From NCBI GenBank assembly GCA_965285935.1, contig OZ260667.1, positions 16,368,001 to 16,432,000 of the forward strand: a stretch of DNA of 64,000 bases, read 5' to 3'. Position numbers: made by a program. The stretch comes from Ophelia neglecta (Eukaryota). Each line of letters begins with the position of its first letter. Within the stretch, counting starts at the first letter, position 1. Below are positions 51,001-57,000 of the stretch, one piece after another.

Positions 51001-54000
51001 CCTGTGAGTGTCAGTACGGATGGTACGCCACCAACTCAACACACTGTGTAAAGCGTGAGTATTAGTACATGTATATGTGGTAAAACTCCTCCCTTTATCC
51101 GCCAAGTAAGCCTGTCAAAGATTTGTAAAGGGACGTTACGGTATTCTATGATTTCGGACAGTTTTAATAGAACGTTTTTGATTAAAGATTTTGCATTTTC
51201 TGCCGAGTATACACTACGGCCTGTCTTGTTTCAGCGACCGGATGCGGGTGATAAAGGCATAAATAGCCGCACCGGTTTCTGATATACATTCGTCTAATTT
51301 TAAAAGTTGACCGATATTATGGGCATTATTGTTAAATAATTGTTTTCACGTGCACCGTACATCCGATTATTTGCCTGGATAGGCTAAGTCGTAACATTAT
51401 AGGCATATTTTACACGATGACTGCGTGATAAGGAAGTACATTTCTTTATATTCATATTTGTGTTTGGTCAGTGTTTAATATGGGATTATGCACTATGACG
51501 TATAATACCACTGTTTATGTTGTAATTGATATATTCAGGTGAGTTACATGACAATTGTACGATCAATCAGGACTGTTACCCGGCGGTTGCTGACAGTAAC
51601 TGCACAAACAACGAGTGTCTGTGTAACTCAGGGTGGATGGAAACCGTTATCACCGACTGCACCAAGAGTAAATAACGCTTTTTATGAGAAAATATGGTCC
51701 ATATCTAATGGTTTTATAGCTCAATAATATCATATTTAGCTAAAAAATAGTTTAAAGTCTATTGATTGGAACATATATTGCTGGTTTCAAAATTACGTTT
51801 CAATATACGAAATAGATTTGAACATTAGCTAAATGGCCAATGCCTTTTAGTAACGTTAGTATCTCTATATCAGTAAAAAGGTGATATTTTTAAAGTTTTG
51901 TTTTTATATAACTTTTCACAGGAAAAGTAGGAGACAACTGCTCTCTACACACTGACTGCTCTGACGCCGTTGGTGATAGTTTTTGCGACAGTGGTTCCTG
52001 TGCCTGTGTGTACATGCACTTTTCCTCGATTGACAACACCTCGTGTTCGGTAAAGGAGCTGGGAGACTCCTGTACAGCAAGCGACCAATGTACCTTCAAT
52101 GTGGTAAACAGCACGTGTCTGAATGACACGTGTGTTTGTCCGTCAGGGTATTACAACGACCCCCTCACCGCGGACGCCTGCTATATGAGAGAGATTGGGG
52201 ACAACACGTGTACGGTCGATACCGACTGCAGCGACGCGGTCGGCAACAGCAACTGTACTAACGGGACCTGTCTGTGTCTGCCTGGTTTTTACCCTACTGA
52301 TAACAATACTGTATGTACCATTAGAACTCTCAGCGACGCATGCGTGTTAGATACCGACTGTTCGGGTGCCGTCAACGGTAGCGAATGTGTTTCCGGTGTG
52401 TGCCAGTGTATGTCCGGATACGAATTGACTGGAAACGGAACCACGTGTACACGGCGGCAGATAGGAGACGCATCATGTACCATCGAAACGGATTGTAGCG
52501 ACGCAGTGGCCAACAGTAACTGTACAGGCGGCGTCTGTACCTGTAATACCGGTTACCAGGTCAGCCCTGACAACACACACTGTATATTACGAAAAATTGG
52601 AGATTCTACATGTACAACGGAGTTAGACTGTAGCGCTGCGGTAGCCAACAGTAACTGTACGGCGGGAGCGTGCGAGTGTAACCCGGGCTACCTGGCCAGC
52701 CCAGATAATACCACGTGTGACAGGTTTATCATCGGCGGAAACATTAGCTGTGTCAGCGACACTCAGTGTCAGGACTCCGTACCCAACAGTTACTGTACGC
52801 CGGACGGTGTTTGTCAGTGTATTACCGGATATTATGTCAATGATGACGCCACCATGTGTACAGAGTTTACAATAGGCAACGGAGTGTGTACCAACAACAC
52901 GGAATGTGCCACGGCGGTGGGTAACAGCACTTGTGTGAATGGTTCCTGTGAGTGTATATCCGGGTTCTACCCCAGCCCTGACAACAGCTCTTGTATCCTG
53001 AGGACGATAGGGGACGCCTGTGTCGTCGACTCGGACTGTACAGACGCTGTATTGAACGCAGTGTGCATCGCAGGAATCTGTCAATGTGAAAGCGGATATC
53101 AGGTCAATATAAACGGAACAGAGTGCACGCTTCGACAAATCGGAGACGCTTCTTGCAGCACAGAAACGGATTGCAGCGATGCAGTGGCCAATAGTAACTG
53201 TACAGGCGGAGTGTGTGTCTGTAACCCCGGTTACCAGGTCAGTCCTAACAACACCGAGTGCATTTTACGGACCATAGGAGATTCCACATGTACAACGGAG
53301 TTTGACTGTAGCGCTGCAGTAGCCAACAGTAACTGTACGGCGGGAGCGTGCGTGTGTAACCCGGGCTACCTGGTCAGCCCCGACAATACCACGTGTGACA
53401 GGTTTATCATCGGCGGAAACATCAGCTGTGTCAGCGACACTCAGTGTCAGGACTCCGTACCCAACAGCTACTGTACGCCGGACGGCGTATGTCAGTGTAT
53501 TACCGGATATTATGTAAACGATGACGCCACCATGTGTACAGAGTTTACAATAGGCAACGGAGTGTGTACCAACAACACGGAATGTGCCACGGCGGTGGGT
53601 AACAGCACTTGTGTGAACGGTTCTTGTGAGTGTATATCCGGGTTCTACCCCAGCCCTGACAACAGCTCTTGTATCCTGAGGACGATAGGGGACGCCTGTG
53701 TCGTCGACTCGGACTGTACAGACGCTGTATTGAACGCAGTGTGCATCGCAGGAATCTGTCAATGTGAAAGCGGATATCAGGTCAATATAAACGGAACAGA
53801 GTGCACGCTTCGACAAATCGGAGACGCTTCTTGCAGCACAGAAACGGATTGCAGCGATGCAGTGGCCAATAGTAACTGTACAGGCGGAGTGTGTGTCTGT
53901 AACCCCGGTTACCAGGTCAGTCCTAACAACACCGAGTGCATTTTACGGACCATAGGAGAATCCATTTGTACAACGGAGTTAGACTGTAGCGCTGCAGTAG

Positions 54001-57000
54001 CCAACAGTAACTGTACGGCGGGAGAGTGCGAGTGTAACCCGGGCTACCTGGTCAGCCCCGACAATACCACGTGTGACAGGTTTATCATCGGCGGAAACAT
54101 CAGCTGTGTCAGCGACACTCAGTGTCAGGACTCCGTACCCAACAGCTACTGTACGCCGGACGGCGTATGTCAGTGTATTACCGGATATTATGTAAACGAT
54201 GACGCCACCATGTGTACAGAGTTTACAATAGGCAACGGAGTGTGTATCAATAACACGGAATGTGCCACGGCGGTGGGTAACAGCACTTGTGTGAACGGTT
54301 CCTGTGAGTGTATATCCGGGTTCTACCCCAGCCCTGACAACAGCTCTTGTATCCTGAGGACGATAGGGGACGCTTGTGTCGTCGACTCGGACTGTACAGA
54401 CGCTGTATTGAACGCAGTGTGCATCGCAGGAATCTGTCAATGTGAAAGCGGATATCAGGTCAATATAAACGGAACAGAGTGCACGCTTCGACAAATCGGA
54501 GACGCTTCTTGTAGTGCCCAGATAGACTGTAGCTCCGCAGTTAACAACAGCGACTGTGTGAACGGTACTTGTGAATGTGAACCTGGGTACCAGGTCAGCC
54601 CGGATAACACCCAGTGTATCCTACGAACCATTGGAACCAGTATCTGCTCGGAGGAGCTTGACTGCTCCGCCGCCGTGGCTAACAGTAACTGTACTAACGG
54701 CACTTGTAGCTGTCTTGAAGGCTTTTTTGTAAACCCAGATGGCACAGAATGCAACGGATTTGTAATTGGCGGTAACATGACCTGCTTCAACGACACACAA
54801 TGTGCCAACTCTGTGGTTAACAGTTACTGTGATGACACGGGTGAATGTCAGTGCCATCTCGGTTACTACCCCAACAACGAAGGCACGGTCTGTGTCACCT
54901 TCACCGTCGGCGCTCCCGGTATGTGTATAAACGAGACGGACTGCCAGTTGTCGGTAGGTAACAGCACGTGTGTGGCGGGGACGTGCGAATGTCTGCCAGG
55001 CTATCTGGCGAGTGCCGACAACACCACGTGTACCATCCGTACGGTAGGAGATTCCTGTACGGTAGCGGCCGACTGCTCAGCGGCTGTTAACTTCAGTACA
55101 TGTGTTGCCGGTATGTGTGAATGCGAATCCGGCTACCAAACTAGTCTCGATGGCAGTTCATGTGAACTTCGCCAGATAGGAGACGCAAGTTGTGCACTTG
55201 ACACGGATTGTAGCGATGCTGTCGCCAACAGTAACTGTAATAATGGTACGTGCGAATGTAACCCAGGCTTTGTCGTCAGCCCGGACAATACTCAGTGTAT
55301 CCTACGACAGATAGGGGGCGCCATGTGTACTACGGAGCTCGACTGCTCAGCAGCTGTCACCAACAGCAACTGTACTGGTGGGGTGTGTGCTTGTCTCCCG
55401 GGCTATCAAGTGGACGCCACGAATACCATATGTAACCTAATCTCAGTCGGGGGGAACGCCACGTGCGCCAGCGACGCTGATTGTACCGCCTTCATACCAA
55501 ACAGTTACTGCGACGCCAGCGGCGACTGTCAGTGTCTTAACGGACACTACTCCACAAACGGGGGGACCGATTGCACTGCTTACACGATAGGGGGCGGTGG
55601 TGGTTGTACCTTGACCTCTCAGTGTTTGGCAGTTATAAGTAACAGTCAGTGTACAGCAGGGTCTTGTGAATGCGAGCCTGGGTACTATGCTGATCCCACT
55701 AATACCACTTGCACTCAACGTACCATTGGAGACGCGTGTACAGTTGACGCCGATTGTTACAGTGCAGTGCCACATTCGGCCTGTGTTGGGGGGACCTGTC
55801 AGTGTGACACGGGCTATGTACTTAATGGCACCGCTTGTGAACCTCGTGAATTAGGTGACGCCTGCTCCACCAACGCGGACTGTAGTGGAGTAATGACCGG
55901 AAGCGAGTGTGTTGCCGGGGTATGCCAGTGCCAAGTGGGATATACATCGAACGCAGGAAGCACCGGATGTACAATAAACACCGTTAACTCTGCTTGCACC
56001 GTTCCAAATGACTGTATAGCTGTCATCGTTAACTCTAACTGCACCTCTGGATCCTGTTCCTGTAACCCTGGCTTCGCCCCTAACATTGCAGGTACCGCCT
56101 GCTCACTATACCCACTAGGTTCCACCTGCAGTTTATCATCTCAGTGTGCCACAACGACACCTAACTCCGACTGTCCGGCGTCAGGAACCTGCACCTGTAA
56201 ACTTGGATATACCACGAGTAACGGCACGTGTACCCTGCTCACTACCGGCGGTCCGTGTACTTCCTCTGCACAGTGTGCTGCTGCCATGCCCGGAGGAGTG
56301 TGCGTGGCTGGAGTGTGCGTGTGTGGGTCTGGATACCGTCAGGTCGGGACCACTTGCACCGTCAACCAGCCAGGGGATCCATGTGTTGACAATACAGACT
56401 GCGTGGCCATTAATAACAGCATATGTGAGGGCGGGTCATGCAAATGTAAAACAGGTTGGTTTATCATTTTACACAAGATATTGATGCTCGACAACATCCT
56501 TATCAAAATCATATCCGTTGAATTATACCAAGCCATTGTCGTTATCATTTTGAAATTCGCTAAATTTGAATACTTACCCTTTAAACCTTTGTTACATTAG
56601 GTTACGATCAGACGACTTCCGGTCAGTGTACGAAAAAGACGCCTTCCAGCAAATGCGCAGACGACAATGAGTGCGCTGTATTTGGGGGTGTCTGCGGCTC
56701 AGCCGGAAGTTGTGAGTGTCCTGCTGACAAAACTTATACCAACGGAACATGTGGTAGGTTCGCATTTAAACTGTTCAATTATTAAGATTCATCGTGAACA
56801 TTTATTTGAGCGTTAACTGCACGAAGGGATTCCGTGCATTTTTTTCACGTAATCCAGTTGTTTACTCTTGTGTCCGGTTTTTTCAGGGAGTGCTGGGACG
56901 GGTAGTTCGTACGTACCATTTTGGATTCCATTTGGGGCATTTTCTTACCGAAGTTCGGGGGTCGTGCTTAACATAAAGAATCAACTTAGAACTTGATATC

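What the first reader, a model, noticed from the sequence alone, without database searches (positions are those of the whole stretch)
52455..55870. 5-module, 678-bp higher-order repeat: B gained exactly two units relative to A
Seen: the IGGN-type module recurs every fifth module. In A it is at 41011, 41689 (+678) and ~42364, giving 3 units. In B it is at ~52721, 53399, 54077, 54755 and ~55436, giving 5 units. The giant exons differ by 4533-3168 = 1365 nt, about 2x678. The copies across 52600-54511 are almost identical even at synonymous sites, while flanking units are strongly diverged. Inference: very recent unequal crossover or concerted evolution changed ectodomain length in steps of 226 aa, analogous to the homogenised repeats of abalone VERL. 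The preserved 5-module period suggests a structural super-repeat.
Basis: partly seen in the sequence, partly recalled or inferred. Interest (0 to 1): 0.72.

Follow-up and report, generated by a model that had tools for sequence, protein, structure and literature searches.

The report
Recently triplicated five-module coding repeat
Two neighbouring genes for long cell-surface proteins are built from a repeating block of five small cysteine-rich modules, and one gene has recently gained two extra in-frame copies of that block, a clean but ordinary example of how repeat proteins change length.

Summary
Two tandem + strand paralogues (A, B) each carry a giant exon: A 40202-43369 (3168 nt), B 51922-56454 (4533 nt). 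Both are made only of ~45-aa six-cysteine EB modules (Pfam PF01683): 24 in A, 34 in B.

Both arrays have a 5-module, 226-aa, 678-nt period, with module lengths 47-45-44-45-45. The period is significant in A and in B once the recent copies are removed (permutation p about 5e-5). It predates the A/B split, because the 47-aa "IGGN" modules of both genes form one clade.

B holds three phased 678-nt copies at 52478-54511. They are 94.2% (copies 1/2) and 98.5% (copies 2/3) identical. The right edge is sharp at 54511|54512. The junction modules B10 and B15 are chimeric: their 5' end matches B20 and their 3' end resembles B05, as in-register unequal recombination predicts. Removing the two extra copies makes B colinear with A.

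Older units and A versus B are saturated at synonymous sites.

The best reading is a real higher-order coding repeat with recent tandem amplification, under purifying selection. This is a new member of a known kind (multi-domain duplication units, nebulin-like triplication).

Not shown: that the period is a structural super-repeat, and that the assembled copy number is exact.

The parts
51922..56454 (+). Gene B giant exon, 4533 nt: 34 EB modules (33 full; the last is completed by the next exon)
   Evidence: Open frame; Pfam EB E=2.6e-125; module table; splice sites
40202..43369 (+). Gene A giant exon, 3168 nt: 24 EB modules (23 full; the last is completed by the next exon); GC donor at 43370
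52047..52718 (+). B unit 0 (modules B02-B06): older, diverged unit that aligns over its whole length with the other units
   Evidence: 9-unit alignment with few gaps; 64% nt identity to unit 1
52719..53396 (+). B unit 1 (B07-B11; module types a-b-c-d-e of 47-45-44-45-45 aa)
53397..54074 (+). B unit 2 (B12-B16), 98% identical to unit 1
54075..54752 (+). B unit 3 (B17-B21): first three modules near-identical to unit 2, last two old
54753..55433 (+). B unit 4 (B22-B26, 681 nt): old, 60-62% nt identity to units 1-3
55434..56102 (+). B unit 5 (B27-B31): old and degenerate; only types a and b are clearly recognisable
52478..54511 (+). Amplified zone: three breakpoint-phased 678-nt copies (52478-53155, 53156-53833, 53834-54511). 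Differences: 39 of 678 (copies 1/2), 10 of 678 (2/3), 43 of 678 (1/3). Sharp right edge, graded left edge.
53127..53261 (+). Junction module B10, identical to B15 (53805-53939). Chimera: alignment columns 1-32 are 100% identical to B20 and 72% to B05; columns 33-144 are 82% to B05 and 62% to B20.
54483..54617 (+). Module B20: its first 29 nt (54483-54511) are identical to B10/B15, and divergence starts at 54512. This is the right breakpoint of the amplification.
40999..41676 (+). A unit 1 (A07-A11)
41677..42351 (+). A unit 2 (A12-A16)
42352..43011 (+). A unit 3 (A17-A21), degenerate
48991..49107 (+). Gene B LDL-receptor class A exon (context). The counterpart in A is 38646-38762.
   Evidence: Pfam PF00057: B E=1.5e-9, A E=6.2e-7; 74% aa identity between A and B
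56601..56758 (+). Gene B next exon: completes module 34 and adds one more EB-like module. The counterpart in A is about 43772-43939.
   Evidence: Pfam EB E=4.5e-5, 23.9 bits, just under the 24.3-bit cut-off
57308..57370 (+). Gene B hydrophobic stretch (21-aa window, mean hydropathy 2.25) followed by basic residues: a likely transmembrane exon. The counterpart in A is at about 44398. Approximate coordinates.

Best explanation
A and B are old tandem paralogues. They encode type-I membrane proteins made of a signal peptide, two LDLa-like exons, about 28 to 38 EB modules, one transmembrane segment and a short tail. Their ectodomain is an EGF-like rod.

Before the A/B duplication the EB array had already acquired a higher-order structure. 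Its unit is five non-equivalent modules (types a-e; 47-45-44-45-45 aa; 678 nt).

In B, in-register unequal homologous recombination between d-type modules of neighbouring units added one 678-nt unit (replication slippage is an alternative mechanism). Later events among the resulting near-identical copies added a second unit and partly homogenised them. This gives three copies at 52478-54511 and lengthens the ectodomain by 2 x 226 aa without breaking the frame.

The period of 5 is kept mainly because misalignment is guided by the greater similarity of same-type modules 678 nt apart, and because any in-register exchange stays in frame. The copies are translated and under purifying selection.

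Shown: the anatomy, the periodicity, its age relative to the A/B split, the breakpoints, the chimeric junction, and the synonymous versus non-synonymous pattern. Inferred: the recombination mechanism, the order of events, the direction (gain in B), and the membrane topology.
For: - EB identity of the modules. An AlphaFold2 model of one unit has pLDDT 92.2 and pTM 0.73. Its nearest solved folds are tandem EGF arrays, at low TM-score.
- Module counts are 24 against 34.
- Lag-5 periodicity: A p about 5e-5; B without the recent copies about 5e-5.
- Module trees. All 8 of 8 type-a modules from both genes form one clade, support 96/87. With the ten recent modules dropped, type a is one clade in the protein tree (95/94). 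Type labels need 8 changes (protein tree) or 10 (DNA tree) against a shuffled mean of 22.3; 0 of 200 shuffles were as low.
- Three phased copies differ at 39, 10 and 43 of 678 sites. The right edge is sharp at 54511|54512, and identical runs reach 335 nt.
- B10 = B15 is a chimera with a B20 5' end and a B05-like 3' end. This is exactly what an unequal crossover between units predicts.
- A module-level alignment with free gaps makes A colinear with B once ten modules are skipped.
- Copies 1/2: dS 0.144, dN/dS 0.07. In modules B07+B08 against B12+B13 all 8 differences are synonymous. Copies 2/3: dS 0.035. Older units and A against B are saturated (pS 0.78-0.88).
- Paralogous exon sets, transmembrane and signal segments.
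- Multi-domain duplication units are a documented general mode of repeat growth (PMC1553488, abstract and section 8 read).
Against: - Only one assembled haplotype was seen. No reads, transcripts or second individual were available, so copy number and expression are unverified.
- The divergence between copies 1 and 2 is not uniform: 20% in B05/B10 falling to 0% in B09/B14. One simple duplication does not explain this. Extra conversion or crossover events must be assumed, and their order cannot be resolved.
- Same-type modules of old units are only about 60-70% identical at best. That is low for classical homologous recombination, so the first event may have used microhomology or slippage.
- Orthology of units between A and B is blurred. 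A unit 2 is 56% identical to B unit 1 and 55% to B unit 4. The direction (gain in B rather than loss in A) therefore rests on parsimony and on the junction chimera, not on an outgroup.
- Averaged over all non-recent pairs, same-type modules are only slightly more alike than different-type ones (51.7% against 48.2% nt).
Confidence: 0.78

Rival explanations
1. Assembly artefact. The third copy, or the exact number of copies, is produced by the assembler. Either two haplotype versions of one unit were laid in tandem, or a longer array was collapsed to three.
For: Copies 2 and 3 differ at only 10 of 678 sites, a level that allelic variation in a heterozygous marine invertebrate could reach (general knowledge, not tested). 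Identical runs of up to 335 nt are hard for short reads. No reads were available.
Against: There is no N or gap anywhere in the window. All copies are exactly in frame and in register. Copy 1 differs from copy 2 at 39 sites with dN/dS 0.07, which is evolved divergence, not noise. The junction modules B10 and B15 are identical chimeras, as real serial duplication predicts.
Confidence: 0.1
2. Five a-type units are ancestral. A lost two units, and three old units in B were later homogenised by gene conversion, so nothing was gained.
For: Graded identity at the left edge and patchy differences (B16 shares states with B06 and B21) show that conversion-like exchange does occur. No outgroup is available. 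Unit orthology between A and B is weak.
Against: It needs a deletion in A of exactly two units, plus conversions in B that happen to end at a phased breakpoint and create the same chimeric junction twice. The amplified zone measures 3 x 678 nt from the sharp right edge to inside B05, where identity rises. A without gaps is colinear with B minus ten modules.
Confidence: 0.07
3. The 5-module period is a selected structural super-repeat, like the nebulin 7-module or titin 7/11-domain super-repeats. The five module types are not interchangeable, the unit matches a periodic partner or fold, and only whole-unit changes are tolerated.
For: Type-specific features survive saturation of synonymous sites in both paralogues. 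These are the lengths 47-45-44-45-45, the aromatic + IGG(N) linkers of types a and b against R-x-IGD in types c to e, and the type-a clade. dN/dS is low between the young copies. The model of one unit has a fairly high pTM of 0.73 for five small modules.
Against: Shared ancestry plus ordinary purifying selection on each module gives the same pattern. The tails of A and B differ by single modules (B29, A20). None of the 15 other EB arrays with at least 11 contiguous modules had its best lag at 5. The type-a signature occurred in 1 of 158 other proteins scanned, and weakly. No partner is known. The model output gives no inter-unit geometry.
Confidence: 0.2

Closest known systems
Nebulin super-repeats and the NEB triplicate (TRI) region
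   Same: A long array of small modules is organised in a fixed multi-module unit. Inside it, a block is present in three near-identical tandem copies that change protein length in frame and are prone to copy-number change. (The PMC9109913 abstract in the search listing says 'eight exons repeated three times'. PMC1553488 reports nebulin duplicated seven domains at a time.)
   Different: Nebulin modules are intracellular ~35-aa actin-binding repeats spread over many exons, with a known periodic partner, the thin filament (recalled). Here the modules are extracellular disulphide-rich EB modules, all in one exon, the unit is five, and no partner is known.
Multi-domain duplication units in domain-repeat proteins (Bjorklund, Ekman and Elofsson 2006, PMC1553488)
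   Same: The same signature and the same test: an autocorrelation peak of domain similarity at a distance greater than 1, with growth in the middle of the array. The paper reports peaks at 7 for nebulin, 5 for cadherin and 4 for FN3 (section 8 read).
   Different: That paper reports that EGF domains mostly resemble their neighbour, which means one-domain duplication. This EGF-like EB array has a clean period of 5. EB modules and lophotrochozoans were not among the cases I read.
Abalone VERL repeats (concerted evolution)
   Same: Tandem extracellular repeats in one protein are kept alike by unequal exchange or conversion, and the edge repeats escape homogenisation. Here the graded left edge behaves likewise. 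The papers were seen only as search listings (PMC2704960, PMC5480393). Details of VERL are recalled.
   Different: VERL repeats are single ZP-N-type domains of about 150 aa, with about twenty homogenised copies and a known sperm-lysin partner (recalled). Here Pfam finds only EB and cEGF-type matches, the unit is five modules, only three copies are homogenised, and the function is unknown.
Satellite-DNA higher-order repeats (for example alpha satellite)
   Same: The formal anatomy matches: diverged monomers, and an n-monomer unit whose copies are far more alike than neighbouring monomers are (98% between units against about 50% between neighbouring modules).
   Different: Those arrays are non-coding, with thousands of copies. 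This one is an open reading frame under purifying selection with 4 to 6 units.
Molluscan LDLa + EB-module membrane proteins (P0006 Mya arenaria 'fibrillin-3-like', P0007 Mercenaria 'LRP1B-like', P0009 Solemya velum)
   Same: These are the closest sequence relatives: 31-34% identity over 46-61% of the B exon. They have N-terminal LDLa domains followed by an EB array, and the two clam proteins (P0006, P0007) end in a hydrophobic stretch followed by basic residues, which I read as a membrane anchor.
   Different: Their juxtamembrane region was not found downstream of A or B by tblastn; I take it from memory to be SEA-like plus a calcium-binding EGF. Their EB runs are irregular, at most 10 contiguous modules by my pattern, so no period of 5 could be seen.

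Membership tests
EB module (Pfam PF01683) array | Match to the family HMM above the gathering score | tested here: met
   A 268.7 bits and B 408.8 bits against a cut-off of 24.3
EB module (Pfam PF01683) array | Regular six-cysteine pattern per module of about 45 aa | tested here: met
   Cys-to-Cys spacings of 6, 9, 5(6), 2, 13(11-14) and 9-11 recur through both exons; 143 Cys in A and 203 in B
EB module (Pfam PF01683) array | EGF-like disulphide-rich fold | tested here: inconclusive
   The model is confident (pLDDT 92.2). The best PDB matches are tandem EGF arrays (NELL, Pfs25, fibrillin), but TM-scores are at most 0.23 and only 2 matches have E<=1e-3.
Higher-order repeat (n-monomer unit) | Monomers n apart are more alike than neighbours, beyond chance | tested here: met
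   Lag-5 permutation p about 5e-5 in A and in B without the recent copies; nucleotide lag 678 is the best lag in both
Higher-order repeat (n-monomer unit) | Monomer types cluster by position in the unit on a tree | tested here: met
   8-10 label changes against a shuffled mean of 22.3 (0 of 200 as low). Type a is a supported clade; types c, d and e are only loosely clustered, needing 3-6 changes each.
Higher-order repeat (n-monomer unit) | Several units homogenised to near-identity | tested here: met
   In B, three copies are 94-98.5% identical. This is not met in A, whose units are 47-53% identical.
VERL-type concerted-evolution repeat | ZP-N type repeat domain | tested here: not met
   Pfam lists EB, cEGF and weak teneurin-EGF matches only
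VERL-type concerted-evolution repeat | Most repeats of the array homogenised | tested here: not met
   Only about 15 of 34 modules in B and none in A
VERL-type concerted-evolution repeat | Egg-coat location and a rapidly co-evolving sperm ligand | not testable with these tools
   No expression or interaction data
Structural super-repeat (nebulin/titin type) | Position-specific conservation of module types across paralogues or species | tested here: inconclusive
   Kept between A and B. Not found in any fetched relative: 0 of 15 testable arrays had best lag 5, and the signature occurred in 1 of 158 proteins. No close orthologue exists in the searched sets.
Structural super-repeat (nebulin/titin type) | Unit length matched to a periodic partner or assembly | not testable with these tools
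   No partner known; the model output gives no geometry
Molluscan LDLa-EB-SEA-cbEGF-TM proteins (P0006/P0007/P0009 type) | N-terminal LDLa domains followed by an EB array | tested here: met
   Pfam PF00057 in exons 38646-38762 and 48991-49107; EB exons follow
Molluscan LDLa-EB-SEA-cbEGF-TM proteins (P0006/P0007/P0009 type) | Juxtamembrane region (SEA-like plus calcium-binding EGF, names recalled) before the transmembrane segment | tested here: not met
   tblastn with the C-terminal parts of four homologues at E<=5 found nothing credible downstream of either giant exon

The most novel reading that the evidence does not exclude
The five-module unit is a true structural quantum. On this reading the EB rod is a molecular ruler whose length is set in 226-aa steps; from a recalled module length I put one unit at roughly 13-15 nm. 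The module types a-e would make position-specific contacts with a periodic partner or with neighbouring rods. The A/B pair, and possibly a copy-number polymorphism at 52478-54511, would then tune a cell-surface or matrix spacing. That would make it an extracellular counterpart of the nebulin and titin super-repeats in a lophotrochozoan.
Probability: 0.12. Interest if true: 0.6.

Novelty: new member of a known kind. Interest (0 to 1): 0.38.

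Why it matters
This is a compact, fully readable case of a higher-order repeat inside one coding exon. An old 5-module period is shared by two paralogues, and on top of it sits a young in-frame triplication whose breakpoint and chimeric junction can still be read base by base.

It shows how EGF-like ectodomains can change length in large in-frame steps. It also marks a likely hot spot for copy-number variation and for assembly error in this genome. 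Gene annotators should expect short reads to mis-size this exon.

It does not reveal a new mechanism. Growth of domain repeats by multi-domain units, and homogenisation by unequal exchange, are established (PMC1553488; nebulin TRI; VERL).

In two full-text searches ('EB module' alone returned 21 papers; 'EB module'/'tandem repeat'/'mollusc'), judging by the titles and abstract starts of the papers listed, I found none on a periodic EB-module array. The example therefore looks undescribed, within the limits of that library.

Tried and rejected
- Tandem Repeats Finder found nothing in either giant exon. Its longest period is 500, so this says nothing about the array.
- I looked for the juxtamembrane and C-terminal domains of the molluscan relatives downstream of A and B with tblastn, first at E<=1e-3 and then at E<=5. 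There were no credible hits. The transmembrane exons were found by a hydropathy scan instead.
- I looked for a period of 5 in relatives. The 7 closest homologues have at most 10 contiguous modules by my cysteine pattern, so they could not be tested. The 15 other arrays with at least 11 modules had best lags of 1-4 or 6-8, and many alternate strictly with period 2.
- The type-a signature search hit only the window's own proteins and one weak case among 158 others.
- A whole-library HMMER search with one unit gave 701 hits at E<=1e-3, but no close full-length orthologue. The best hits were fragments at 60% and 52% identity.
- Idea: GC-biased conversion marks the homogenised units. B has higher GC3 than A (0.55 against 0.45), but evenly along the exon and not only in the young copies. 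The idea is not supported as stated.
- Idea: positive selection in module B16. All 6 differences from B11 fall in 5 codons that change the amino acid. With so few changes this is not significant by my own rough estimate, and I ran no formal test.
- Foldseek against the PDB gave only low-TM matches to tandem EGF proteins. This helps with the fold class and not with the super-repeat question.
- The antisense open frames of 213-225 aa that recur every 678 nt had only a sub-threshold Pfam hit (17.6 bits against a cut-off of 25). I treat them as a by-product of the repeat.
I did not ask for paper supplements.
- I built no spliced, joined gene model. Every search used a single exon.

Full report
**What is there**

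The window contains no N, and I do not take it for human. Its one long minus-strand open frame (23947-25263) is an UNC-93-like protein. Its best named relatives are from an annelid (Paralvinella, 51%), a nemertean and molluscs. The relatives of the genes studied here are molluscan. The source is therefore a lophotrochozoan whose phylum I leave open.

Both exons translate into nothing but ~45-aa six-cysteine modules, which Pfam calls EB modules (PF01683; A E=1.5e-81, B E=2.6e-125). Counting cysteines gives 24 modules in A and 34 in B. In each gene the last module is completed by the next exon.

**Gene context**

I compared the two loci with each other by tblastx, exon by exon. I built and searched no joined, spliced model. 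A and B share the same exon series:

| Exon | A | B |
|---|---|---|
| LDLa exon (Pfam PF00057) | 38646-38762, E=6.2e-7 | 48991-49107, E=1.5e-9 |
| Second cysteine-rich LDLa-like exon, no Pfam hit | 38941-39075 | 49295-49435 |
| Three single EB-like exons | present | present |
| Giant exon | 40202-43369 | 51922-56454 |
| One more EB-like exon | about 43772-43939 | 56601-56758 |
| Small conserved exon | present | present |
| Hydrophobic exon | about 44398 | about 57308 |
| Two tail exons | present | present |

B also has a signal-peptide-like open frame near 48648. 'Ectodomain' is therefore a fair description, though it is inferred.

The closest proteins in the 5.8-billion-sequence set are 12 hits at 25-34% identity, the closer ones molluscan LDLa+EB proteins at 29-34%. 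A whole-library HMMER search with one repeat unit found 701 relatives at E<=1e-3 but no close full-length orthologue.

**The period of five**

Module lengths run 47-45-44-45-45 aa (226 aa, 678 nt). I call the five positions types a to e.

- The 47-aa type-a module carries the IGGN linker and one extra residue between the third and fourth cysteines. It starts at 40999, 41677 and 42352 in A, and at 52719, 53397, 54075, 54753 and 55434 in B.
- 678 is the best nucleotide self-lag in both exons.
- Shuffling the order of modules gives a lag-5 p of about 5e-5 in A (2e-4 family-wise over ten lags). It gives the same in B after the ten recent modules are removed.
- On a maximum-likelihood tree of all 56 full modules, all 8 type-a modules from both genes form one clade (96/87).
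- With the recent copies dropped, position labels need 10 changes on the DNA tree and 8 on the protein tree, against 22.3 for shuffled labels (0 of 200 as low). Type a is again a clade on the protein tree (95/94). On the DNA tree it needs two changes.
- Types c, d and e are only loosely separated.
- Nine units, including a diverged unit 0 (modules 02-06) in each gene, align over 228 columns with hardly a gap.

The period is therefore old and predates the A/B duplication. A and B are themselves saturated at synonymous sites (pS 0.86-0.88).

**The recent amplification in B**

At lag 678, identity is 93-100% for 90-nt windows starting at 52599-53724. The right edge is sharp. The last matching pair is 53833/54511, and dense mismatches start at the next base.

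Counted back from that edge, the zone consists of three phased copies: 52478-53155, 53156-53833 and 53834-54511. They differ at 39 (copies 1/2), 10 (2/3) and 43 (1/3) of 678 sites.

The module that spans each junction is a chimera. B10 is identical to B15. Its first 32 alignment columns are 100% identical to B20 but 72% to B05. The rest is 82% identical to B05 but 62% to B20. An unequal exchange between the d-type modules of neighbouring units produces exactly this junction.

A module-level alignment with free gaps pairs A01-06 with B01-06, A07-10 with one of the three copies, A11 with B21 and A12-18 with B22-28. B minus two units is therefore colinear with A.

Two qualifications apply:

1. 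In the non-periodic tail, A19 pairs with B30 (95/86) and A22 with B32 (99/88). B29 and A20 have no partner. 'Exactly two units' is thus a net figure.
2. Copy 1 is not uniformly young. Identity to copy 2 rises from 80% (B05/B10) through 91%, 95.7% and 98.5% to 100% (B09/B14). More than one exchange or conversion event is needed, and the order cannot be read from one haplotype.

**Selection**

- Between copies 1 and 2 (B06-09 against B11-14), dS is 0.144 and dN/dS is 0.07. All 8 differences in the a and b modules are synonymous. The copies have been evolving as coding sequence, which also argues against copy 1 or 2 being an artefact.
- Between copies 2 and 3, dS is 0.035 and dN/dS is 0.41, based on only ten differences. 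Six of them cluster in module B16 and fall in codons that change the amino acid. That is too few to call selection.

**Structure**

An AlphaFold2 model of unit B07-B11, using the nine units as its alignment, is confident (pLDDT 92.2, pTM 0.73). Each module has a short helix followed by small strands. Foldseek against the PDB returns tandem EGF arrays (NELL, Pfs25, fibrillin, EMR2) at low TM-scores, as expected for a rod of small modules. This fits an EGF-like rod. It does not test whether five modules form a structural unit.

**Comparison with what is known**

Growth of domain repeats by several domains at a time is the common mode, with family-specific unit sizes: nebulin 7, cadherin 5, FN3 4. 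EGF domains usually look like one-at-a-time duplications (PMC1553488, abstract and section 8 read).

The nearest analogue in anatomy is nebulin. It has an old multi-module super-repeat and, inside it, a block in three near-identical copies that varies in number. I saw the abstract start of PMC9109913 in the listing. The rest on nebulin is recalled.

VERL shares only the process: homogenised extracellular repeats with diverged edge repeats. I saw search listings only, and the details are recalled. Its domain, scale and function differ, or are unknown here.

No other EB array that I could test has a period of 5 (0 of 15). The type-a signature is essentially private to this window (1 weak case in 158 proteins). 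Two literature searches turned up no paper on a periodic EB array among those listed.

**Verdict**

The best explanation, at about 0.78, is a real, old five-module higher-order repeat with a recent in-register tandem amplification in gene B, maintained under purifying selection.

- An assembly artefact (0.1) and 'loss in A plus conversion in B' (0.07) remain possible, because no reads and no outgroup were available.
- The structural super-repeat idea is neither supported nor excluded (0.2).
- This is a new member of a known kind. It is a neat example and a practical warning for assembly and annotation, but not a surprise to a specialist.

**What stayed unchecked**

Read support, expression and population variation were not available. 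Close orthologues were not found. I did not ask for any paper supplements.

Noticed in passing
window 23947-25263 (-): A 438-aa open frame encodes an UNC-93-like major-facilitator protein (Pfam PF05978, E=5.8e-18). The best named relatives are annelid (Paralvinella, 51%), nemertean and molluscan, and one unnamed record is 75% identical. This gave the rough taxonomic placement.
   Followed up: partly
window 5338-5667 (-): A 110-aa open frame rich in hydrophobic stretches looks like the C-terminal part of a membrane transporter. It could be another exon or a second copy of the UNC-93-like gene. It has no Pfam hit at E<=0.01.
   Followed up: partly
window 52623-53264, 53265-53942, 53979-54620 (-): Antisense open frames of 213-225 aa recur once per 678-nt unit. 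The only Pfam hit is sub-threshold (17.6 bits against a cut-off of 25). They are most likely a by-product of the repeated, stop-poor sequence.
   Followed up: yes
giant exons 40204-43362 and 51924-56447: B is richer in GC than A along its whole exon: GC 0.52 against 0.47, GC3 0.55 against 0.45, CpG observed/expected 0.94 against 0.75. The difference is not confined to the young copies. It could reflect different recombination, methylation or expression of the two paralogues.
   Followed up: partly
window 43370-43371: The giant exon of A appears to end in a GC donor (AG|GCAAG), whereas B has a standard GT donor at the same codon phase.
   Followed up: no
window 53940-54074 (module B16) against 53262-53396 (B11): All six nucleotide differences between these otherwise near-identical modules lie in five codons that change the amino acid. 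Some states are shared with B06 or B21, which suggests patchy conversion or relaxed or diversifying selection on type-e modules.
   Followed up: partly
A19-A22 (42625-43137) and B29-B32 (55713-56231): In the non-periodic tail the two genes differ by single modules. B29 has no partner in A and A20 has none in B, while A19/B30 and A22/B32 are well-supported pairs.
   Followed up: partly
proteins P0123, P0136, P0137, P0152, P0166, P0171, P0180, P0183, P0196: Several unrelated-looking EB/EGF-like arrays from the representative library alternate strictly between 40-aa and 43-aa modules (period 2, some with extra peaks at 6 or 8). This is another kind of higher-order coding repeat in this domain family.
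   Followed up: no
window 62326-62449: A 42-nt tandem repeat, 3 copies, 78% matches, lies downstream of gene B.
   Followed up: no
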